From: Candidatus Caldarchaeales archaeon
GTDB lineage: Archaea; Thermoproteota; Nitrososphaeria_A; Caldarchaeales; Calditenuaceae
Assembly: GCA_039630085.1 (NCBI GenBank)
Contig: JBCNVM010000003.1
Span: 61,338-125,337, forward strand
Reading direction: 5' to 3'
Length of the DNA: 64,000 nucleotides
The notes under the pieces are model-generated. The model worked only from the letters and a program-made list of their open reading frames with translations. It was not told the origin of the DNA and did not search any database. Shown here piece by piece: positions 30 to 7,939 of this stretch (the first letter of the stretch is position 1; the number at the start of each line of letters is the position of its first letter). A program made the position numbers and the translations under genes.

Positions 30-719
30 ATGGAACTAGGAGACATCGTCAGGACCGCGGTGCCGGCCCTGTTGTCGGCTCTGTTGATCTTGGGTGCGGT
101 CGTCCTTTTCCCCGGACTGATACCGGGGACATACAGGGTCACGACCGCGACCGCCCCGATCCCCGTCTTCATTACGCGGTTCGTGAACCTCACGACGACC
201 CTCACAACCGCCTACCTCGTCGACTCCCGGGGACCTGTCTGGGAGCCCGTGTTCCTGGACCTCTCGGATAAGCCCGCGGAGGGGACGATAACCGTCCTCA
301 ACAGGACGCTGACCAAGGAGAGGCCGGCCTTCGCGATTGTCTTCATAGCCGCCGCGCCCCGCGGTTATGAGTTCGCAAGCACGGTCAACGGCTTCGTATA
401 CAGGCTCGAGGCTAGGGTTGCAAACAAACTAACGGCCGTCGTCGCGGAGGCAGCGCCGCCCGTCATCCCGGGGGTCAACCGCGAAAACTTCAGAGACCTG
501 CTGATGGAGAGGGCGTTCTCGCCCGTAAACGTCCTGCCGTTCCAGAACCCGAGGAGGACCGAGATCTCGCCGGGGCCCTTCGTCCTCCAGAAGGAGCGCG
601 GAGCCTACTCGCCGTACCCGTGGCTCGCGATATGGCCGATTTCGGTCCACTTCCATGGCATCGAGAGGGACGTCCGGGTGACGGTCACGCTCTCCTATAG
701 CTTGGTCGGGGCGAAGTGA
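30..719 (+). CDS. Hypothetical N-terminally membrane-anchored protein, translationally coupled to the E1 gene
   Basis: Hydrophobic N-terminus (AVPALLSALLILGAVVLFPGLI); N-x-T sequons NLT and NRT; stop overlaps the E1 start (GTGA at 716-719). Confidence 0.6.
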   Translation: MELGDIVRTAVPALLSALLILGAVVLFPGLIPGTYRVTTATAPIPVFITRFVNLTTTLTTAYLVDSRGPVWEPVFLDLSDKPAEGTITVLNRTLTKERPAFAIVFIAAAPRGYEFASTVNGFVYRLEARVANKLTAVVAEAAPPVIPGVNRENFRDLLMERAFSPVNVLPFQNPRRTEISPGPFVLQKERGAYSPYPWLAIWPISVHFHGIERDVRVTVTLSYSLVGAK

Positions 720-1558
720 CGCAGAAGCTCGCTCGGCGGACGCGGGTCTTCGAAGTCTTCAGGATGGACGAGGACCGCTACGAACGACAGAGGAGGTTAT
801 GGGACCAGAGGAAGATATCGTCCCTGAGAGTCTTGGTGGGAGGTGCCGGGGCTCTCGGGAACGAGGTCGTAAAGAACCTAGTCCAGATCGGCGTGAAGAG
901 AGTCTACGTGGTCGATTTCGACAGGGTCGTCCACTCGAACCTGAACAGGTGCCTGTTCTTCAGAAAGAGCGACGCGACTAAAAGGGCGAAGAAGGTCGAC
1001 GCGCTGGCGAAAAGGGCCTCGGACCTCAACCCTGATGTGGAGGTCGTACCGATCTTCGGGGACATCCGCGACCTCCCGGGCGACGTGATCAAGGACGTCG
1101 ACATGGCCCTCGGAGCCTTCGACAACATCTTCGCCAGACTCGTCCTCAACGCGATGTGCTACTCCAACGGTAAGCCCCTAATCGACGGCGGAATGGAAGG
1201 GACGCTCGGAACTGTTCAGGTGGTCCTCCCTCCCGAGAGCCCCTGCGTGGAGTGCGGGATGAGCGAGCTGGACCTCGAGCACATGTGGGAGAGGATCTCC
1301 TGTAGCGGCGACGTTGTCGTCGAGGAGGGCCCGAAGTTGCCCTACATCCCGATGACCGGCGCGCTCGTCGGCGCGCTTCAGGTCATGGAGACAGTCAAGA
1401 TAGCCCTCGGCTTCGAGTCCTATAGGTCCTCCGGGAGGTGGAACGAGTCGGTCGGAGAGCCACTCGTCGGCAAGTCCCTCCTGATCGACCTGAGGTCTAA
1501 CCTCGGCTACACCTACGACCTCCACAAGAGGAGCGACTGCAACGTCTGCGCCCTCTGA
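716..1558 (+). CDS. E1-like ubiquitin-activating enzyme (ThiF/MoeB/UBA family)
   Basis: RYERQ N-terminal motif, GGAGALG nucleotide loop, DFDRVVHSNLNR, Zn pairs CVEC and CNVC, candidate catalytic Cys in ERISCSG. The start could be ATG 764. Confidence 0.92.
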   Translation: MTQKLARRTRVFEVFRMDEDRYERQRRLWDQRKISSLRVLVGGAGALGNEVVKNLVQIGVKRVYVVDFDRVVHSNLNRCLFFRKSDATKRAKKVDALAKRASDLNPDVEVVPIFGDIRDLPGDVIKDVDMALGAFDNIFARLVLNAMCYSNGKPLIDGGMEGTLGTVQVVLPPESPCVECGMSELDLEHMWERISCSGDVVVEEGPKLPYIPMTGALVGALQVMETVKIALGFESYRSSGRWNESVGEPLVGKSLLIDLRSNLGYTYDLHKRSDCNVCAL

Positions 1559-1623: not shown

Positions 1624-1647
1624 GCGCCGGGGATTTTGTATTCACGC

Positions 1648-2061
1648 ATGATGGAAAGGAGGTCGAGGGCGGGTCTTAGCGAGGCGGTGACCGCGATTCT
1701 GCTGGTGGTGATTGGGATCGCGATGGCACTCATGATCTGGCAGTTCTTCACACCACGGCCGACGGAGGAGCTGAGGATCGGACCAATCGACGTCTCCGGA
1801 GGGGTTGTCGTCTTCACCGCGCAGAACATAGGGAGCGTGGACGCGGAGATAATTGGAGTCGCCTGCTACACCGCAGGGCAACCTCCGGCGGCCGGGGGTG
1901 CGGTGACGCCGCTGGGCGGTGCGGACACCAAGCTCCAGCAAGGCGAATCGAGTACCTTCTCGGGGAGCTGCGCAGGCGCGGAGCCGGGCAAGCCGATCAA
2001 CGTGATGGTCTACACCAAGAACAAGGCCTACGGGCCCTTCACGGTCATCGTCAGGTCGTGA
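1648..2061 (+). CDS. Archaeal type IV pilin (candidate major pilin)
   Basis: Class III signal peptide RRSRAG|LSEAVTAILLVVIGIAMALMIW; small beta-rich body with two Cys; own TATA box and T-tract. Confidence 0.85.
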   Translation: MMERRSRAGLSEAVTAILLVVIGIAMALMIWQFFTPRPTEELRIGPIDVSGGVVVFTAQNIGSVDAEIIGVACYTAGQPPAAGGAVTPLGGADTKLQQGESSTFSGSCAGAEPGKPINVMVYTKNKAYGPFTVIVRS

Positions 2062-2189: not shown

Positions 2190-3008
2190 ATGATCATTAC
2201 CGTGAACGAGTTGACTACTAAGAGGAGCGTCAGGCTGGAAGTAGAACCTGGCCACACGGTGAGGGCGGTCGTCGAGGAGGTGATGAAGGCGCTGAAGGTT
2301 CCGCCGCAGACGACCTATAGGCTGGTGTTGGGCGGGAAGGAGATCGGGCCGGAACTCTTCGACAAGACGCTGGGCGAGCTCGGCATTTCGGACGGCGCGG
2401 TGATGGACCTCGTCCCGAGGCCCGTCGGCGGGTCGACCCTCCTGCCTAGGGACAAGTTCCTGAAGAGGCTGGAGAGGGAGGAGGAGGACCTGAGGAGCAG
2501 CGGTTTCCCTTTCACCAGACAGGACGTCTGGAGGCCTATGAGCTTCCCTATGGTGTACAGCGCTGGCTACGAGATGGTCAACGTGGCGGTGAGGTACACT
2601 GTCTCCTTCAGGGCTAGGGGGTTCGTCCTAACGAAGAGGGGAATCGAAGAGCAGTGGGACCACTCGGCGAGCCTCTACGTCCTCGACTACTATCCCTACA
2701 TGGACCCTAAGAAGGGCGCACCGATGAGGATATTCTGGGAGAGCGACATCTTCCACCCCAACATCTGTCCCGGCCCCCGCTTCAACGGGAACGGACTCGT
2801 CTGCTGGAAGATGATCAAGGAGTGGGGGAAGACCTTCTCGCTCGCGACGCTGGTGAGGGGGCTTCAGCTCCTAGTCGAGAACCCGAACCCGGATGACCCG
2901 CTGAGCAAGATACCCATCTGCATGCAGGCAGCGTCCTTCTTCAAGGAGAACCCACACCTCACAGGCACCTACAGGCCTGAGACCGGGAGCAAGCCAAGAG
3001 TCATCTGA
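2190..3008 (+). CDS. Ubiquitin-like domain (aa 1-81, ending PVGG) fused to an E2/UBC conjugating domain
   Basis: Beta-grasp pattern (LEVEPGHTV...RLVLGGKEI...DKTLGELGISDGAVMDLV..GG); E2 helix 1 KRLEREEEDL; IFHPNI; catalytic Cys205 in GLVCW; W after the Cys; PNPDDPL. Confidence 0.88.
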   Translation: MIITVNELTTKRSVRLEVEPGHTVRAVVEEVMKALKVPPQTTYRLVLGGKEIGPELFDKTLGELGISDGAVMDLVPRPVGGSTLLPRDKFLKRLEREEEDLRSSGFPFTRQDVWRPMSFPMVYSAGYEMVNVAVRYTVSFRARGFVLTKRGIEEQWDHSASLYVLDYYPYMDPKKGAPMRIFWESDIFHPNICPGPRFNGNGLVCWKMIKEWGKTFSLATLVRGLQLLVENPNPDDPLSKIPICMQAASFFKENPHLTGTYRPETGSKPRVI

Positions 3009-3021
3009 TAGGTGCGAAATC

Positions 3022-3513
3022 TTGAGGGGAGAGGAGACCGAAGTTCTCCCCGTCTACATCGAGCTGGAAGCCCTCGTCGAGGCCGTCAGGCATTGCAGGG
3101 AGGGGCTGCCCTACGAGGTCATCGGTTTCTTAGTCGGCGAGCGGCTGAAGTGGAAGGACAAGCTCTACGTCTTCGTCACCGACAGCGTTAGGGGCAGGTC
3201 GGTCTCCACCCGCACCCACGTTGAGTTCGACCGAGACGCGCTCGCGGAGGTCGCGGGGCTCATCAGAAGGGGGCACCCGGAGTCGGAGATCGTGGGCTGG
3301 TACCACTCTCATCCGGGATACGGCTGCTTCATGTCCCCGACGGACATTCGCTCCCACGTGACCTCCTTCCCCTATCCCCATCAGGTCGCGCTGGTCATCG
3401 ACCCGGTAAGAGGGGAGGCCACGTTCTTCAAGGTCGACGAGGACGGGGACTACCGTTCTGTCCCTTCGGCGGTGGTGAGGAGGTCCCGTGGTCAGGATCG
3501 TCGAGGTGCGTGA
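3022..3513 (+). CDS. JAB/MPN+ (JAMM) metalloprotease, Rpn11-like deubiquitinase
   Basis: EVIGFLVG and IVGWYHSHPGYGCFMSPTD give the complete JAMM motif E..HxH..S..D; TTG start. Confidence 0.92.
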   Translation: MRGEETEVLPVYIELEALVEAVRHCREGLPYEVIGFLVGERLKWKDKLYVFVTDSVRGRSVSTRTHVEFDRDALAEVAGLIRRGHPESEIVGWYHSHPGYGCFMSPTDIRSHVTSFPYPHQVALVIDPVRGEATFFKVDEDGDYRSVPSAVVRRSRGQDRRGA

Positions 3514-3655
3514 GAGGGACGTCAGGGAAGCTCCGCCCCCCGTGGACGGGGAATACGAGCTCGTTGCGGTCGACTCGGAGGGAGTCGGCTACGATCTTTC
3601 GGACCTCTTGATCCTGTTGAAGCGTGGAGCCAGCGGGAGCCGGACGGAGGTCTAG
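3488..3655 (+). CDS. Small 55-aa hypothetical protein, absent from the ORF track
   Basis: GTG 3488 to TAG 3655, MVRIVEVRERDVREAPPPVDGEYELVAVDSEGVGYDLSDLLILLKRGASGSRTEV; GAGGAGGT just upstream; fills the gap after JAB. Confidence 0.5.
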   Translation: MVRIVEVRERDVREAPPPVDGEYELVAVDSEGVGYDLSDLLILLKRGASGSRTEV

Positions 3656-3659
3656 GAGG

Positions 3660-4439
3660 TCAGGGGCCCCGTCCTTCCGCGCCCTTTCGAGATATCGCCG
3701 CGACGGCAGCCTTCGACTCGTGCAGAGCCTTCGCAAGGACGCGCTCCCTCGGGCCGAGCCTCGTCCCCAGCGCGCTCAGGGCGAATTCGATCTCCGAGGT
3801 GACCAGCCTCGCGACCTCTTCGATCAGTGGCTTGAGGGAGCTCGCGCCCGACTCGTACTCCCTGAGGAGGACCGCCAAGTCGGCGCCGACGTAGAGGGCC
3901 CTGTAGATCGACCTGTCGAGCCTCCTGTAGAGCTTCCTGGAGAGCCTGATCAGCCTCAGCTCCCAGAAGGCGAGGTCCAGCAGCGCCCGAGCCTCCTGTT
4001 CCTTACCGAGGGACTTCAGTATCCCGAAGGACGCGACCGTGCCGACGAACGCCCTGTAGAGCCTGCCGGCCTCTGTGACCGTGAGGGGGATCAACTTGCT
4101 GTTGAGCATGAACGCGACCTGCGCCTCGTCCTTCAGCGTGAGGACCCTCTTCGCCTCCTCACCGATCGCCTTGGCCAACTCCTCCCTGCTCTGCTGGGCT
4201 GCCAGCACCGACGACGACCGCTCTCTGACGTCCGTCCACGACTTGCTCATGGCGAGCATCTTATCGAGGAGCGCCCCTATCGAGGACTCCCCTATCAGCG
4301 GTGCCTCGGAGACGTAAAGAACGGTCGGAGGCGGTAGGACGTATTGCTTCACCTCTAGGACCTTGGGCCTGCCTCTCCTCAGCAACTCCCTTCCCCTTCG
4401 GACGAAGAAGGAGCCCGGCCAAAGCCTACCACGACTCAT
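3660..4439 (-). CDS. Hypothetical helical cytoplasmic protein, last gene of a pilin-like operon
   Basis: 259 aa, Leu/Ala/Arg/Glu-rich helices; start overlaps the upstream stop (4436-4439). Confidence 0.6.
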   Translation of the reverse strand: MSRGRLWPGSFFVRRGRELLRRGRPKVLEVKQYVLPPPTVLYVSEAPLIGESSIGALLDKMLAMSKSWTDVRERSSSVLAAQQSREELAKAIGEEAKRVLTLKDEAQVAFMLNSKLIPLTVTEAGRLYRAFVGTVASFGILKSLGKEQEARALLDLAFWELRLIRLSRKLYRRLDRSIYRALYVGADLAVLLREYESGASSLKPLIEEVARLVTSEIEFALSALGTRLGPRERVLAKALHESKAAVAAISRKGAEGRGP

Positions 4440-4909
4440 CCCCTACTCACGGCCAGGATTCCGACCCTGTCTGAGGAACAGGTCAGCCTCGCAGTCCACG
4501 CGGAGAACGACCTGGTCGAGTCGTAAGCGCCCCACACGACCGAGAAGAGCCTGTGGCCGATCACGACGGTACCGTCGGAGTTCCTGACCAGCTTGACGAC
4601 CGTGAAGTTCACGGAGACGCCCGGCGGAGCAGCCGACGCGATGATGGCGAGGGCCTCGTCGACGGGGACGCCGTCCTCCCGGCACACCAAGGCCTCCATC
4701 TGACCACGCTCGGTCAGAGTCGCGACCATCTTGTTGGCGAGCTCCTCGAGGTCGTTCCTCTGCTCCGAGATCGAGACGGTCTTTATGGAGACGATCTGAT
4801 AGAAGAGCACGACCCCCAAGACGACGATGAGCGAGGCCAGAATCGCCTCGACGGTCCAAACCATCCCGAGACGCCTCGAGCCCCTCGACCTCAAGACGGA
4901 CCACCCCAC
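4436..4909 (-). CDS. Minor pilin-like protein
   Basis: Basic leader and RRLG|MVWTVEAILASLIVVLGVVLF, a class III-like signal peptide. Confidence 0.65.
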   Translation of the reverse strand: MGWSVLRSRGSRRLGMVWTVEAILASLIVVLGVVLFYQIVSIKTVSISEQRNDLEELANKMVATLTERGQMEALVCREDGVPVDEALAIIASAAPPGVSVNFTVVKLVRNSDGTVVIGHRLFSVVWGAYDSTRSFSAWTARLTCSSDRVGILAVSRG

Positions 4910-5631
4910 CAGGCCCAGACCTCCACGCTCAGGGTAATTCCGTTCTCTGTTACGGTCGTCTCCGAAAGGTACACTGCGTCGGGTGGTATAGAGACCCTAG
5001 ACGGCTCGACGAACCGGCCCTTTACGAACGCAACCACCAAGTCGGGATACACTGCCGGCACGACGTGATACGAGGAATCCGTGAAGACCACAACCGGCGA
5101 CTCGAAGACGAAAGGCACGATTTCGTAACCTGACTCAACTACCGTCGACCCGCCGTAATGGCAGAGGCTCGCACTTTCAGAGACCCGTATGGTACCGTCC
5201 TCACCGTAGTTCACGAGGTCGGGGTCGAGCCGTAGACCACTCACGTGAACGCCGTATCTCGTCACCACTATCGCGCCCCTGCCTTCGGCGGTGCAGGTCG
5301 TGTAATCGGACGGGAACGAGAGGGCAACCCCAGGGCCCGACTGAACGATCCTCTGCGTGAACGAGACCTTGGCGACGAAGTCGACCCTGACTCCCCTGAA
5401 GTCGTGGGACGGAGCTACCACGTAGAGCGGGTTCAGGAGGTAGGCCTCCCTTGAAGACCTAGAGACGAGCGACTTGATGAGGTTGAGGGCTGCCCTCGAC
5501 TCGGCGCGGACCATCGCGTCCTCGGTGAAGGAGAGATAACTCGAGGCGCCGGAGAGCGCGGAGAAGACCAGCAAGCCGGCGATTAGCGAGAAGATAGAAA
5601 CTCCTATGGCCGCGTCGACCACCGCCTCCAT
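4891..5631 (-). CDS. Membrane-anchored pilin-like or accessory protein
   Basis: N-terminal hydrophobic helix VVDAAIGVSIFSLIAGLLVF resembles a mature minor-pilin N-terminus; beta-rich body. Confidence 0.55.
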   Translation of the reverse strand: MEAVVDAAIGVSIFSLIAGLLVFSALSGASSYLSFTEDAMVRAESRAALNLIKSLVSRSSREAYLLNPLYVVAPSHDFRGVRVDFVAKVSFTQRIVQSGPGVALSFPSDYTTCTAEGRGAIVVTRYGVHVSGLRLDPDLVNYGEDGTIRVSESASLCHYGGSTVVESGYEIVPFVFESPVVVFTDSSYHVVPAVYPDLVVAFVKGRFVEPSRVSIPPDAVYLSETTVTENGITLSVEVWAWWGGPS

Positions 5632-5727: not shown

Positions 5728-6045
5728 ATGAGCGTCGGATTGGAAGACCTGCTCAGGAGGCTGAGGCTTGAGATAGTCGGCGACTTCAGGCAGTACCTGA
5801 ACAAGCTCGAGCGGACTGGGGACGGCTCCTGGGAGGTGGTTCTGACCGAGAAGGCGGAGGCCTTCGCGGGGACGATGGAGTGCCCGGTCGACAGGGAGAA
5901 GGTGCGGATCGAGGACGCCGTTCTGTGCCCCATCTGTTACACGCCTTACCACGTCGATTGCGCCCAGATCCTCGCCAGCAGGTCGGAGAAGTGCTGGAAG
6001 TGCGAGCGGTTCGACAGGTTCGACCTGCTTCTGAAGGGGAGGTGA
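5728..6045 (+). CDS. Small RING-finger-like protein (candidate E3 ligase)
   Basis: CPVD-x11-CPIC-x4-H-x2-C-x10-CWKC: eight-ligand cross-brace spacing with Asp at ligand 2; close to E1, E2 and JAB. Confidence 0.72.
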   Translation: MSVGLEDLLRRLRLEIVGDFRQYLNKLERTGDGSWEVVLTEKAEAFAGTMECPVDREKVRIEDAVLCPICYTPYHVDCAQILASRSEKCWKCERFDRFDLLLKGR

Positions 6046-6048
6046 TGA

Positions 6049-6909
6049 ATGATGGGCCTTGAGCACGAGGCGAGCCGCCGGGTCCTGATCACCCTGCTGA
6101 CGGACCCGCACAGGTCAGGCAGGACGATCTACTTCGACCCCGACGTGCTCTCGGCGAGACTAGGCGGCCAAGCGTGGGACCACCTCGAGGCGATGATCCA
6201 GCTGGGCGAGAGGGGGCTCATCAGGTTCCACCACGCGAGGGAGGTGGAGCTGCTGTTCAGGTTCATGCGCGCGAGGGCGAGGCTCGAGCACGTGGCAGGG
6301 CTAAGGGACTTAGAGGAGGTCGCCGCCGAGCTAAGGAAGGTCAGGATCCTCGAAAGGGTCGTCGGGAAGGACCTCGAGGTGATCAGGGATCCGAGGGTGT
6401 CCGACCACCTGGATGCGCTTCGGGCACTCTCGGTCCAGCTCGGCAAGCTGCTGAAGCTCCTCGAGGGGAAGAAACTGGTGAGCAGGGAGGTCTACGAGAG
6501 GGTGGCCGCATCGGTGCTGTCCGAGACGGCGAACGTCGTTCAGTCCACGGAGCAAGTCCTCTCCTCTCTCCGCGCGGCCCTCGCCGAACTCGTGGAGGTG
6601 ATGAACGTCTTGGTTCAGGAGCGGGCGAGGATATCGGGACTCCGCGATAGGCTCGGCTTCAACCTCGAGGAGCTCGACTTAGTGTTGAACTCCTACCTGT
6701 CGGGCATTGAGGAGTTCAAGCGCCTCCTCCAGCAGGTCGATCGACTGTTGAGGAGTGCCTTCCCGAACTGGGACGATGTAATAGGTTCCGCTCAAAGGGT
6801 CATCTCTGAGTTCGCGCAAAAGGCGCCTTTCGTTGATGCGGTCCTCAAACAGATAACTGCCATAAACGTTATGTTAAGTTCAGGAATCCAGACTGAACTT
6901 GGCCGATGA
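6049..6909 (+). CDS. Coiled-coil protein with possible N-terminal winged helix and a CdvA/SHOCT-like motif
   Basis: N-terminal ..LSARLG..EAMIQLGERGLIRF; LLEGKKLVSREVYERV; long heptad helices; 3 nt after the RING gene. Confidence 0.55.
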   Translation: MMGLEHEASRRVLITLLTDPHRSGRTIYFDPDVLSARLGGQAWDHLEAMIQLGERGLIRFHHAREVELLFRFMRARARLEHVAGLRDLEEVAAELRKVRILERVVGKDLEVIRDPRVSDHLDALRALSVQLGKLLKLLEGKKLVSREVYERVAASVLSETANVVQSTEQVLSSLRAALAELVEVMNVLVQERARISGLRDRLGFNLEELDLVLNSYLSGIEEFKRLLQQVDRLLRSAFPNWDDVIGSAQRVISEFAQKAPFVDAVLKQITAINVMLSSGIQTELGR

Positions 6910-7939
6910 GGAACTTCACCCTTTTGACCTCCTCGGTGACCCTCTCGAGGACCTTGAGAGCCCGTTGGAGCCTCTCGATGGAACCGTTTAAGAAATTAAG
7001 GTTGAGGTCGGAGCCAACCCTCAGCAGGCTTCTCATGGCATCGAGCTGCTCGCGCAACCTCTCGACGCTCCTCTCGAGGACCTCAACATCGGTCTTACGT
7101 CTCCGCTTGAGCTCAGAGGCCTTCCTAGTCAACTCTTGGTAGAGGAAGTCGTACTCCTCTTGGCTGATCTCGCCGATGACGAGCCTCGCCTTGAGGAGCT
7201 CGAACTCGGACTTCAGCTCGGCGGGCAAGTCCTCCTGACCCTCGTCCTCGAGGAACTGCTTCGCGAACGACTCGAGGACCTCCTCGATCACCTCGTCTGA
7301 CCAAGAAGCTGTCTCTGAGAGCTGCTCTGGACGAAGGTCGCCGATGGTAGTCCTCAGCAGGTCCTCCTCGAGCTTCTCCCTTACCCTCGAGACGGTCTCC
7401 AACGCCTCGCTCCCCAGACCCTTCGACCCCTCGAGCATCACTATCGACTCTTCGACCTCCCTCAGCGCCCCCAGCAGGTCCTCAATCACCACAGGGTTCC
7501 TGTCCTTGGATCCGAGATAGTTGATCAGCGAGGAGATGAGCAGCGACCTCCTCCTTAGCAGGACGCCCATGAGGCTCGGCGAGGGCGGGACTTCATCGAG
7601 CGACGACCCGGGGATCGAAAGCACCAGCTCCGCCATGACCCTCCTGACGCTCTCGTACTCGTACTCGGCGACCTTCCCGGACATGAATCCGTAATCGAGC
7701 AGCCGAATCGCTTGGACCAGCATTCCCTTGGCCTCATCGAAGTCGGGGACTCCCGCGACGGTGACCAGACCCAAGGACTGCAACCTGATCAGCCCCATCA
7801 AGACCTTCAGTTCATCGAGCCTGACGGCCTCCGCGGCCCCCTTGAGGTCCACACGGACTCTTCCGCCCTTCCTCGGTAGCGAGGTCAGATACTGGATCAG
7901 CCTCACGTCCTCTTCCCTTACGCTCAACCCGCAGCTCAC
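6869..7939 (-). CDS. Coiled-coil protein with N-terminal winged helix and repeated CdvA/SHOCT-like motifs
   Basis: LKGAAEAVRLDELKVLMGLIRLQSLGLVTV (wHTH-like); MSGKVAEYEY and RLVIGEISQEEY; heptad C-terminus. Confidence 0.55.
   Translation of the reverse strand: MSCGLSVREEDVRLIQYLTSLPRKGGRVRVDLKGAAEAVRLDELKVLMGLIRLQSLGLVTVAGVPDFDEAKGMLVQAIRLLDYGFMSGKVAEYEYESVRRVMAELVLSIPGSSLDEVPPSPSLMGVLLRRRSLLISSLINYLGSKDRNPVVIEDLLGALREVEESIVMLEGSKGLGSEALETVSRVREKLEEDLLRTTIGDLRPEQLSETASWSDEVIEEVLESFAKQFLEDEGQEDLPAELKSEFELLKARLVIGEISQEEYDFLYQELTRKASELKRRRKTDVEVLERSVERLREQLDAMRSLLRVGSDLNLNFLNGSIERLQRALKVLERVTEEVKRVKFLIGQVQSGFLNLT

What the first reader, a model, noticed from the sequence alone, without database searches (positions are those of the whole stretch)
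2190..3008. Ubiquitin-like modifier encoded as a cleavable fusion with its own E2
Seen: aa 1-81 look like ubiquitin rather than MoaD (K-T-L-x-x-x-G-I-x-D-G..L-V..GG) and end in PVGG at nt 2427-2432. They run in frame into an E2 with HPN, Cys205 and PNPDDPL. Established: a Ubl needs a free C-terminal GG for activation, and JAMM proteases mature pro-ubiquitin. Inference: the JAB encoded 13 nt downstream cuts after GG and releases Ubl and E2 at 1:1, so the cascade would be protease-gated and close to stoichiometric. The E2 also has 9 residues between HPN and the Cys (ICPGPRFNGNGLVC region extended versus the usual 7-residue spacing), which may affect specificity.
Basis: partly seen in the sequence, partly recalled or inferred. 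Interest (0 to 1): 0.82.

Follow-up and report, generated by a model that had tools for sequence, protein, structure and literature searches.

The report
Archaeal ubiquitin fused to its E2
A hot-spring archaeon encodes a ubiquitin-like protein and its conjugating enzyme as one polypeptide that a neighbouring protease most likely cuts apart, an arrangement already proven in a bacterial system but apparently not yet described for eukaryote-like archaeal ubiquitin systems.

Summary
Window 2190-3008 (+) is one 272-aa ORF. Residues 1-81 form a ubiquitin fold ending RPVGG. Residues 82-272 are a UBC-type E2 with HPN189-191 and an invariant Cys205. A Rpn11-like JAMM protease starts 13 nt downstream, and a short E1 and a RING-like protein lie nearby.

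One count is wrong: 13 residues, not 9, separate HPN from Cys205.

Cleavage after Gly81 is well supported but not shown.
- GG is kept in 22 of 22 Ub-E2 fusions examined, some only about 26% identical.
- Split relatives break exactly at the junction: Ub ends GG-stop and E2 starts M-x-L-P.
- No start codon lets the E2 be made alone.
- The genome holds no other Ubl for this E1.
- The complex model puts residues 75-84 in the JAMM active site (0.69, best control 0.02), though a like complex is solved.

Cleavage of a Ubl-E2 fusion by its own JAB is already shown for bacterial Type I Bub (BubAB). Caldiarchaeum Rpn11 cleaves linear Ub fusions. So this is a new variant of a known kind. In held species genomes the fusion was seen only in Calditenuaceae. 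An E2 tree needs at least 4 fused/split changes. "Protease-gated" remains inference.

The parts
716..1558 (+). Short E1-like activating enzyme, 280 aa. It has the ThiF adenylation domain and two CxxC pairs but no C-terminal UBL/UFD domain.
   Evidence: Pfam ThiF E 4.9e-46. The best PDB sequence matches are the active adenylation domains of UBA6, UBA1 and UBA3, E about 6e-24. It is syntenic in G025, G024 and G026. In G022 the 68%-identical homologue lies about 16 kb away.
1636..2061 (+). 141-aa protein with an N-terminal hydrophobic, pilin-like segment, lying between the E1 and the fusion gene. Its role is unknown and it is not a Ubl.
   Evidence: No Pfam family. It is conserved at 87-95% identity in G025, G024 and G026 and absent from the 13-kb G022 locus. 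'Pilin-like' is my reading of the sequence.
2190..2432 (+). Ubiquitin-like domain, aa 1-81, ending R77-P-V-G80-G81. The GG codons are nt 2427-2432.
   Evidence: GG is present in 22 of 22 Ub-E2 fused rows.
2433..2447 (+). Linker S82-T-L-L-P86. The predicted scissile bond is G81|S82, between nt 2432 and 2433.
   Evidence: The model has no regular secondary structure at 78-86, block pLDDT 79, and the E2 helix starts at 87. Stand-alone E2 relatives start M-x-L-P at this point. Residues 75-84 lie in the predicted JAB interface.
2433..3008 (+). UBC-type E2 domain, aa 82-272 plus stop. It has HPN at nt 2754-2762, catalytic Cys205 at nt 2802-2804, NPNPDDPL at aa 231-238, and a disordered C-terminal tail ending K-P-R-V-I.
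   Evidence: Pfam UQ_con 30.9 bits. PDB E2 sequence matches. VIA Z 11.7 to UBE2S. C205, H189, P190 and N191 are invariant in the 13-row alignment. No in-frame ATG, GTG or TTG lies between codons 72 and 117.
3022..3513 (+). Rpn11-like JAMM metalloprotease, 163 aa. It is the predicted processing enzyme and deconjugase.
   Evidence: Pfam JAB E 7.3e-13. The best PDB match is Caldiarchaeum Rpn11 6fjv_A, E 4.2e-17. E32, H95, H97, S105 and D108 are invariant in 16 rows. Complex model 0.69 against 0.02 for the best control.
5728..6045 (+). 105-aa RING-like zinc-finger protein, the candidate E3.
   Evidence: Pfam Prok-RING_1 23.5 bits, below the cut-off of 29.1. C52, C67, C70, C78, C89 and C92 are invariant in 8 rows. 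D55 and H75 align with Cys in proteins encoded beside Asgard Ub clusters. It stays linked to the fusion and the JAB in the rearranged G022 locus.

Best explanation
The gene encodes a precursor of a second, self-contained ubiquitin-like conjugation system of a Calditenuaceae (Caldarchaeales, 'Aigarchaeota') archaeon.

Proposed steps:
1. The modifier (aa 1-81) and its E2 (aa 82-272) are translated as one chain.
2. The Rpn11-like JAMM protease encoded 13 nt downstream binds the ubiquitin fold, threads the tail R77-P-V-G-G into its zinc site and cuts the G81|S82 peptide bond.
3. This frees a modifier with a C-terminal Gly-Gly. It also frees an E2 whose N-terminus matches that of stand-alone relatives.
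4. The short E1 (716-1558) then adenylates the free Gly81 and passes the modifier to Cys205 of the E2.
5. The RING-like protein (5728-6045) probably helps transfer it to targets. The same JAMM enzyme probably also removes it again.

Shown here: the two folds, the motifs, the conservation, the gene context and the split relatives. Inferred: the cleavage, the thioester relay, the E3 role and any gating.
For: (1) GG is kept at the junction in 22 of 22 fused rows: the window, P0001-P0008, P0010, P0030, P0036, P0039, P0104, P0105, P0145, P0111, P0062, P0119, P0154, L042 and L044. Identity falls to about 26%. In the close clade P76, R77, P78, G80 and G81 are nearly invariant, while positions 82-84 vary.

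(2) Control: Ubl homologues joined to partners other than an E2 mostly lack GG. This holds for P0139, both copies in P0086, and the second copy in P0084. The free-standing P0149 also lacks it.

(3) Split relatives break exactly at the junction. Of 37 split loci, 20 have a Ub ending GG-stop, 16 have a tail of 1-5 residues, and 1 has a 26-residue tail. Their E2s start M-x-L-P.

(4) The E2 cannot be translated alone. There is no in-frame start codon between codons 72 and 117.

(5) The genome, about 90% complete, has only 3 ubiquitin-fold matches. Two belong to a separate canonical Ub-E2-E1 operon on another contig. That leaves the fused Ubl as the only candidate substrate for this E1. Each system has its own JAB.

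(6) The JAB has the full JAMM motif, and its nearest solved relative is Caldiarchaeum Rpn11.

(7) Complex model of the whole fusion with the JAB: score 0.69, best of 3 controls 0.02. That mark is reached by 58 of 80 solved complexes and 2 of 110 mismatched pairs. The three runs agree in at least 70% of contacts, and the partner's pLDDT is at least 81. The interface holds Ubl residues 75-84 and JAB residues 32, 95, 97, 105 and 108. A like complex (6fnn) is solved, so the pass may reflect likeness only.

(8) Precedents. CsRpn11 cuts pro-Ub after GG, and the uncut form is refractory to E1 (PMC5654768, passages). It cuts linear Ub fusions, and a 3-residue linker suffices for a folded partner (PMC6043591, sections 13-14); here the linker is 5 residues. 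BubCD cuts the BubAB Ubl-E2 fusion after the conserved Gly.
Against: - There is no biochemical, proteomic or RNA evidence for this protein.
- The JAB is a near-constant member of the operon family: 74 of 80 loci have one, including loci whose Ub needs no processing. Adjacency therefore does not single out a processing role.
- Fuchs et al. found that bulky residues just after the cut site, or a tightly folded partner without a linker, block CsRpn11. Here the positions after the cut are Ser, Thr and Leu, and E2 helix 1 starts only 5 residues later.
- The complex prediction may be recalled from the solved Rpn11-Ub structure.
- The E1 has no UFD/UBL domain, so how it recruits the E2 is open.
- The RING assignment is below Pfam's threshold.
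Confidence: 0.68

Rival explanations
1. Permanent N-terminal UBL domain. The ubiquitin fold is never removed. It serves as a built-in docking module of the E2, for example for the UFD-less E1, a proteasome or Cdc48 receptor, or the JAB. The conjugated modifier would be another protein.
For: Many proteins carry uncleaved UBL domains (established knowledge). The E1 here lacks the C-terminal UBL domain that the canonical E1 of the same genome has, so some other recruiting device could be needed. The linker is short.
Against: GG is kept in 22 of 22 fusions while flanking linker residues drift. Ubl homologues on non-E2 partners lose GG. No other Ubl is available for this E1. The window's Ubl and the canonical Ub show no BLASTP similarity, and the canonical Ub has its own E1, E2 and JAB. 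Split relatives show that the two parts work as separate proteins.
Confidence: 0.14
2. The precursor is cleaved, but not by the adjacent JAB. Another protease would release the Ubl: one of the two other JAMM proteins of the genome, or an unrelated peptidase. The adjacent JAB would act only as a deconjugase.
For: The genome has two further JAB genes. In split relatives the cluster JAB has no obligatory processing job.
Against: The cluster JAB travels with the fusion gene even in the rearranged G022 locus. CsRpn11 and CsJAMM each act only on their own partner (PMC6043591, passages). The window Ubl is very unlike the canonical Ub. The complex model places the scissile region in this JAB's active site.
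Confidence: 0.1
3. Artefact. The fusion would result from a sequencing or assembly error that removed a stop codon between two adjacent genes.
For: In 14 related split loci a single in-frame stop codon, with no other stop, lies between Ub and E2. One base error could therefore mimic a fusion.
Against: The open frame recurs in 5 of 7 genomes of the genus at 79-100% identity. It also recurs in 8 metagenome proteins. In a second sample a contig bridges the junction without an indel. No Met codon follows GG in the window.
Confidence: 0.02

Closest known systems
Bacterial Type I Bub (6E.1) operons: BubAB Ubl-E2 fusion processed by BubCD (bioRxiv 10.1101/2024.11.21.623953, passages read; first noted as 'polyUbl fused to an inactive E2-like domain' in PMC1779556, passages)
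   Same: The Ubl is encoded N-terminal to its own E2 in one chain. A JAB/JAMM peptidase of the same operon cuts right after the conserved C-terminal Gly to make a conjugatable Ubl. This is the logic proposed here.
   Different: - Bub is bacterial.
- BubB has Ser in place of the catalytic Cys and lacks the C-terminal UBC helices.
- The JAB is fused to the E1, which lacks a catalytic Cys.
- A DUF6527 protease (BubE) is present, and the Ubls have 1-3 beta-grasp domains.
- The window system has a single ubiquitin fold, a classical HPN/Cys UBC domain, separate JAB and E1 genes, a RING-like gene, and no DUF6527 among the 15 neighbours scanned.
- No PADLOC defence model matches the fusion.
Caldiarchaeum subterraneum ubiquitin operon with Rpn11 (PMC3082918, PMC5654768, PMC6043591; passages and sections 13-14 read)
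   Same: It comes from the same archaeal order. It has a eukaryote-type Ub with GG, a UBC E2, an E1, a small RING protein and a Rpn11-like JAMM. That JAMM cuts a C-terminally extended pro-Ub after GG and also cuts artificial linear fusions. The window JAB's nearest solved relative is this Rpn11.
   Different: - There the Ub is a separate 87-aa gene with a 9-residue propeptide, and the gene order is Ub-E2-E1-srfp.
- That E1 carries a C-terminal UBL domain.
- The window genome has such a canonical operon too, on another contig.
- The window cluster is a diverged paralogous system. The E2s share about 35% identity over 64 residues. The two Ubs give no BLASTP alignment. The 'propeptide' here is the whole E2.
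Split Ub-E2-JAB (+E1) clusters of Desulfurococcales, Bathyarchaeia, Thermoplasmatota, Micrarchaeota and Asgard archaea (loci L045-L121)
   Same: They have the same E2 sub-family, with the long HPN-to-Cys loop in the nearest members. They also have the same short E1 and the same JAB. The nearest split forms are 36-41% identical.
   Different: Ub and E2 are separate genes in 37 of 80 loci, and only the E2 was detected in 40. In Asgard loci the Ub lies on the opposite strand.
Eukaryotic ubiquitin precursors (polyubiquitin and Ub-ribosomal protein fusions)
   Same: Ubiquitin is made as a linear fusion that must be cut after GG before use (established knowledge; also stated in PMC5654768).
   Different: The eukaryotic fusion partners are ubiquitin itself or ribosomal proteins, not an enzyme of the cascade. 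Processing is by cysteine DUBs, not by Rpn11.

Membership tests
UBC-type ubiquitin-conjugating enzyme (Pfam PF00179) | Score over Pfam's gathering threshold | tested here: met
   30.9 bits against a cut-off of 27, residues 177-240.
UBC-type ubiquitin-conjugating enzyme (Pfam PF00179) | UBC alpha/beta fold | tested here: met
   Model residues 83-259 against UBE2S 1zdn_A: Z 11.7, rmsd 3.5, 133 aligned. UbcH10, Ube2K, UBE2D2 and UBE2E1 score Z 10.7-11.3.
UBC-type ubiquitin-conjugating enzyme (Pfam PF00179) | HPN motif followed by a catalytic Cys | tested here: met
   H189, P190, N191 and C205 are invariant in 13 rows. The loop between them is 13 residues. The 7 residues in UBE2D are recalled, not taken from a call.
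UBC-type ubiquitin-conjugating enzyme (Pfam PF00179) | Forms a thioester with the modifier | not testable with these tools
   Needs biochemistry.
Ubiquitin family modifier (Pfam PF00240) | Beta-grasp fold | tested here: met
   Foldseek to ubiquitin: target-normalised TM 0.85-0.88, rmsd 1.7-2.2. Caldiarchaeum Ub 6fnn_C: 35% identity. VIA Z 12-12.9.
Ubiquitin family modifier (Pfam PF00240) | Score over Pfam's gathering threshold | tested here: inconclusive
   23.5 bits against 25.4 when the whole protein is scanned. 26.2 bits, over the cut-off, in the six-frame genome search.
Ubiquitin family modifier (Pfam PF00240) | Gly-Gly at the end of the fold, aligned with ubiquitin G75-G76 | tested here: met
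   Alignment to polyubiquitin chains. GG is kept in 22 of 22 fused rows.
Ubiquitin family modifier (Pfam PF00240) | Free C-terminus that is activated and conjugated | not testable with these tools
   Requires cleavage, which is inferred, not shown.
JAMM/Rpn11 metalloprotease | E...HxH...S..D zinc and catalytic motif | tested here: met
   E32, H95, H97, S105 and D108 are invariant in 16 rows. Pfam JAB 48.8 bits against 22.5.
Caldiarchaeum-type archaeal Ub operon | Ub, E1, E2, RING and Rpn11-like components encoded together | tested here: inconclusive
   E1, Ub, E2 and JAB are clear. The RING-like protein is below the Pfam cut-off, at 23.5 against 29.1, but has conserved metal ligands.
Caldiarchaeum-type archaeal Ub operon | Separate Ub gene, order Ub-E2-E1-srfp, E1 with a C-terminal UBL domain | tested here: not met
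   The order here is E1, a membrane protein, the Ub~E2 fusion, then JAB, with the RING-like gene 2.2 kb further on. The E1 is 280 aa without a UBL. The canonical form is on contig C65.
Type I Bub (BubAB/BubCD/BubE) | Ubl-E2 fusion | tested here: met
   One ORF holds both domains.
Type I Bub (BubAB/BubCD/BubE) | E2 with an invariant Ser in place of Cys, and no C-terminal UBC helices | tested here: not met
   Cys205 and HPN are present. Helices 218-230 and 242-253 are modelled.
Type I Bub (BubAB/BubCD/BubE) | JAB fused to the E1; DUF6527 protein in the operon | tested here: not met
   JAB and E1 are separate genes 1.5 kb apart. No DUF6527 hit among the neighbours scanned with Pfam.

The most novel reading that the evidence does not exclude
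The fusion may be more than compact coding. It could be a zymogen-like switch. While the ubiquitin fold sits 5 residues in front of E2 helix 1, the usual E1- and E3-binding face, both modifier and E2 would be inert. One JAMM cut would then arm the whole cascade.

The family may also toggle between fused and split states through a single in-frame stop codon. In 15 of 21 same-strand split loci the E2 keeps the Ub frame. The E2 tree needs at least 4 fused/split changes. Stop-codon read-through or recurrent fusion could therefore tune how much precursor is made. This would be a regulatory layer not described for any ubiquitin system.
Probability: 0.25. Interest if true: 0.72.

Novelty: new variant of a known kind. 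Interest (0 to 1): 0.5.

Why it matters
Archaeal eukaryote-like ubiquitin systems are used as models for how the eukaryotic cascade arose. Here the 'propeptide' of a pro-ubiquitin is the cognate E2 itself, in a system with classical HPN/Cys chemistry and an Rpn11-type protease.

If cleavage is confirmed, three things follow:
- The precursor logic proven for the diverged bacterial Bub pathway also evolved repeatedly in the lineage closest to eukaryotic ubiquitin.
- It would give a simple thermostable system in which maturation, E2 charging and deconjugation can be rebuilt from four small proteins.
- It would allow a direct test of whether Rpn11-type enzymes began as precursor-processing enzymes.

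The practical value is modest. Conceptually it is an extension, not a surprise.

Tried and rejected
- Assembly artefact: rejected.
- Separate translation of the E2 from an internal start: rejected. There is no ATG, GTG or TTG between codons 72 and 117.
- Membership in bacterial Bub, Bil or CBASS defence systems: not supported. PADLOC has no model matching the fusion, the RING-like protein or the conserved neighbours. It gives only generic E1-E2 and JAB hits for the E1 and the JAB. Weak typeIV_Cas11 hits (E about 0.002) for the 259-aa neighbour look like chance.
- Cross-talk with the canonical Ub of the same genome: no BLASTP alignment between the two Ub domains. This is a weak argument only.
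- Expression: no RNA holder was listed for the stretch, so nothing can be said about transcription.
- Contigs of run X2 do not cover 3018-3600. No conclusion is drawn from that.
Their genomic context is unknown.
- Only 34 of the 150 listed representatives, out of 233 hits, were fetched and read. The count of fused forms is therefore a lower bound.
- The E2 tree is a 'quick' tree with several long branches, and the tool warned of long-branch joins. 'At least 4 changes' rests on starred branches. The 'alone' P rows have no known context.
- Inter-domain geometry of the AlphaFold model could not be inspected, because no coordinates or PAE are available. Whether the Ub fold masks E2 helix 1 is untested.
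- Literature: six searches and passages of 11 papers gave no report of a Ub-E2 fusion in an archaeal eukaryote-type system. Supplements are closed. Supplementary Fig. 1 and Table 2 of PMC5654768 (Clusters I-III) may show such clusters, and I could not see them.
Full report
WHAT IS THERE

Window 2190-3008 (+) is a single 272-aa ORF.

Residues 1-81 are a ubiquitin fold.
- Pfam gives ubiquitin and Rad60-SLD at E about 4e-5. That is just under the cut-offs when the whole protein is scanned. The six-frame family search scores 26.2 bits, over the cut-off.
- Alignments to polyubiquitin chains put G80-G81 on ubiquitin's terminal Gly-Gly.
- An AlphaFold2 model built on a 33-row alignment has mean pLDDT 89 and pTM 0.69. 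It shows a beta-beta-alpha-beta-beta-beta unit at 2-77 and no regular secondary structure at 78-86. A helix at 87-103 then opens the E2.
- Foldseek matches residues 1-80 to ubiquitin and NEDD8 (target-normalised TM 0.85-0.88, rmsd 1.7-2.2). It also matches Caldiarchaeum ubiquitin, 6fnn_C.
- VIA-align gives Z 12-12.9 for ubiquitin folds. For residues 83-259 it gives Z 10.7-11.7 to UBE2S, UbcH10, Ube2K, UBE2D2 and UBE2E1.

The E2 part passes Pfam's UQ_con threshold, 30.9 bits against 27. It carries HPN189-191, Cys205 and NPNPDDPL231-238.

- nt 2427-2432 encode GG only.
- N191 and C205 are separated by 13 residues, not 9. This long loop is shared by the nearest relatives, split ones included.

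SURROUNDINGS

- Upstream lies a 280-aa E1 (ThiF, E 4.9e-46). Its nearest solved relatives are the UBA6, UBA1 and UBA3 adenylation domains. It has no C-terminal UBL domain.
- A 141-aa membrane protein of no known family follows the E1.
- Thirteen nucleotides after the fusion gene a 163-aa JAMM protease starts. Its best solved relative is Caldiarchaeum Rpn11, 6fjv_A at E 4.2e-17. E32, H95, H97, S105 and D108 are invariant in a 16-row alignment.
- At 5728-6045 lies a 105-aa zinc-finger protein. Its Pfam Prok-RING_1 hit is below threshold. Six Cys are invariant, and two further ligand positions align with Cys in proteins encoded beside Asgard Ub clusters.

The whole block is syntenic in three congeneric genomes. 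In a fourth, G022, it is rearranged. There the fusion gene, the JAB, the RING-like gene and four neighbours of unknown function stay together, while the E1 homologue (68% identity) lies about 16 kb away.

A SECOND SYSTEM IN THE SAME GENOME

Contig C65 of the same genome, which is about 90% complete, carries a canonical Caldiarchaeum-type operon:
- a Ub ending GG-stop (PF00240, E 1.1e-12);
- a 162-aa E2 (UQ_con, E 1.8e-26);
- a 402-aa E1 with a C-terminal UBL.

The genome has three ubiquitin-fold matches in all: these two and the fused one. It has three JAB genes. The two Ub domains give no BLASTP alignment. So the window cluster is a separate, self-contained system. Its only candidate modifier is the fused domain.

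DISTRIBUTION

- The word-indexed protein search found 9 relatives. Eight span the junction and all keep RP[VI]GG. One (P0009, from a 711-nt contig) starts right after it.
- Among 76 genomes of the class, a full-length fused match occurs in 5 of the 7 genomes of the window's genus and nowhere else. The rest show only weak matches to canonical Ub and E2 genes.
- G023 has a split Ubl-E1-E2-JAB cluster on a 41% GC contig, while the fused loci of the other genomes of the genus are 56-62% GC. Its E2 is sister to a Bathyarchaeia E2. This contig is probably mis-binned.
- The exhaustive representative search gave 233 hits at E up to 0.001. I read 34 of the 150 listed. Eleven more are Ub-E2 fusions, 26-42% identical, and all have GG at the junction.
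- The scan of species genomes kept 80 loci out of 314 confirmed relatives.
  - Three are fused. By their record titles, two are Calditenuaceae (one of them Ca. Calditenuis fumarioli) and the third is titled only 'Nitrososphaerota archaeon'.
  - 37 have separate Ub and E2 ORFs.
  - In 40 only the E2 was detected with my query.
  - The split loci come from Desulfurococcales, Thermoplasmatota, Micrarchaeota, Methanomassiliicoccales and Asgard archaea.
  - 74 of the 80 loci hold a JAB ORF.
- In the split loci the Ub ends exactly GG-stop in 20 of 37, has 1-5 extra residues in 16, and has 26 in one. The E2s begin M-x-L-P, which is where the fused proteins read GG-x(1-2)-L-P.
- A quick maximum-likelihood tree of 109 E2 parts has 22 fused rows. 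It places the window in an all-fused clade of 11 rows (support 100). That clade sits inside a 28-row clade (support 99) that also holds split Desulfurococcales and Bathyarchaeia rows.
- The fused label needs 7 changes on this tree, of which at least 4 are forced by well-supported branches. Long branches make the exact number unsure.

HOW IT MOST LIKELY WORKS

An E1 can only adenylate a free C-terminal carboxylate (established knowledge). For Caldiarchaeum, uncut pro-Ub is refractory to E1 (PMC5654768, passages). The evidence points to cleavage at G81|S82.
- GG persists in 22 of 22 fusions while the next three residues drift.
- Homologous Ubl domains joined to other partners (P0139, P0086, the second copy in P0084) have lost GG. 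The free-standing P0149 has lost it too.
- No internal start codon allows the E2 to be made alone.
- The break point of the split relatives falls at the same place.

The adjacent JAB is the obvious enzyme.
- Its closest characterised relative cuts pro-Ub precisely after GG. It also cuts Ub-GFP, Ub-lactalbumin and Ub-DHFR linear fusions.
- With a folded partner, a 3-residue linker was enough (PMC6043591, sections 13-14). The window protein has 5 residues before helix 1.
- A complex prediction of the whole fusion with the JAB scored 0.69 against 0.02 for the best of 3 controls. That mark is reached by 58 of 80 solved complexes and 2 of 110 mismatched pairs. The runs agree in at least 70% of contacts, and the partner's pLDDT is at least 81.
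- Residues 75-84 of the fusion contact JAB residues 32, 95, 97, 105 and 108.
- Because the Rpn11-Ub complex is solved, this pass shows likeness rather than independent proof.

After the cut, the usual E1 to E2-Cys205 to target relay, helped by the RING-like protein, is inferred from homology only.

WHAT SPEAKS AGAINST, OR LIMITS, THIS

- There are no experimental data of any kind, and no RNA run was listed.
- The JAB accompanies the family whether or not processing is needed, so its presence is not diagnostic.
- Fuchs et al. showed that bulky residues just after the cut site block cleavage. Ser82 is small, but Thr83 and Leu84 are untested.
- The E1 lacks a UFD, so E2 recruitment is unexplained.
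The 1:1 stoichiometry is automatic if cleavage is complete.

COMPARISON WITH WHAT IS KNOWN

The mechanism is not new.
- Iyer et al. 2006 noted polyUbl fused to an E2-like domain in bacterial 6E operons (PMC1779556, passages).
- A 2024 preprint showed that the JAB domain of BubCD cuts the BubAB Ubl-E2 fusion just after the conserved Gly (companion preprint).

The window system is not a Bub member. It has Cys and HPN rather than Ser. JAB and E1 are separate genes. There is no DUF6527, and there is a single ubiquitin fold.

It is also not the canonical Caldiarchaeum operon, because gene order, E1 architecture and sequences differ. It is best called a fused variant of a widespread archaeal Ub-E2-JAB-E1 cluster family.

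Six literature searches found no description of a Ub-E2 fusion in archaeal eukaryote-type systems. So did passages of the following papers:
- Nunoura 2011;
- Hua 2018;
- Grau-Bove 2015;
- Beam 2015;
- a 2023 Caldarchaeales paper;
- Chambers 2023.

The closed supplements of PMC5654768 (Clusters I-III) might show it.

VERDICT

The most interesting leads are the recurrent origin of the fusion and the in-frame Ub-stop-E2 arrangement in split relatives. Interest is 0.5.

Noticed in passing
Loci L048-L055, L057, L063-L066, L068, L103 (Thermoplasmatota and Micrarchaeota): In 15 of 21 same-strand split loci the E2 gene is in the same reading frame as the Ub gene. In 14 of them a single stop codon (TAA, TGA or TAG) and 0-13 sense codons separate GG from the E2 Met. 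By chance one third would be in frame: binomial 4e-4, or 4e-3 after my rough collapsing of close kin. Kin are not independent. This may reflect repeated fusion and fission by one base change, or stop-codon read-through.
   Followed up: partly
Window 2973-3005 (aa 262-272) and the C-termini of the E2 rows: The E2 family has conserved C-terminal tails. P-[RKAQS]-[VI]-[VIL] lies within the last 16 residues in 44 of 109 rows, from TACK, Thermoplasmatota and Micrarchaeota. Asgard rows end in an acidic run followed by D-D-I-I-I-I-D-D, which resembles a SUMO-interacting motif (the resemblance is recalled, not from a call). In the model the tail is disordered, pLDDT under 50. Its function is unknown.
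   Followed up: partly
G000 contig C65 (locus L002: 184-2302, minus strand): There is a second, canonical Caldiarchaeum-type operon in the same genome. It has a Ub ending GG-stop, a 162-aa E2 and a 402-aa E1 with a C-terminal UBL. A better-scoring Rpn11-like JAB lies about 19 kb away on the same contig.
   Followed up: yes
Window 30-719 (+), 1636-2061 (+), 4436-4909 (-), 4891-5631 (-): Four small proteins with N-terminal hydrophobic, pilin-like segments surround the cluster. One of them hits DUF7288 at 26.9 bits, just under the cut-off of 27. Two of them move with the fusion gene in the rearranged G022 locus. 'Pilin-like' is my reading of the sequences, not a tool result.
   Followed up: no
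Window 3660-4439 (-), 6049-6909 (+), 6869-7939 (-): Three proteins of 259, 286 and 356 aa stay next to the fusion, JAB and RING-like genes in both gene orders. They have no convincing Pfam match; the best is one bHLH_ILI hit at E 0.1, 13.5 bits against a cut-off of 27. They could be substrates or adaptors. The 259-aa one has weak typeIV_Cas11 PADLOC hits (E about 0.002), probably chance.
   Followed up: no
L007 (G023 contig C91): A 41% GC contig sits in a genome bin of this genus, whose fused loci in other genomes are 56-62% GC. It carries a split Ubl (GG plus 16 residues), E1, E2 and JAB cluster. Its E2 is sister to a Bathyarchaeia E2. It is probably a mis-binned contig.
   Followed up: partly
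Proteins P0151, P0025, P0022, P0084, P0139: Relatives show other domain architectures:
- P0151: an E2-like domain with Tyr at the Cys position, followed by a C-terminal Ubl ending I-I-G.
- P0025: an E2-like domain fused to a protein that looks like a Ser/Thr kinase.
- P0022: a tandem of two E2-like domains.
- P0084: two Ubl domains followed by a membrane segment.
- P0139: a Ubl without GG on a 327-aa membrane protein.
These readings come from the sequences only.
   Followed up: no
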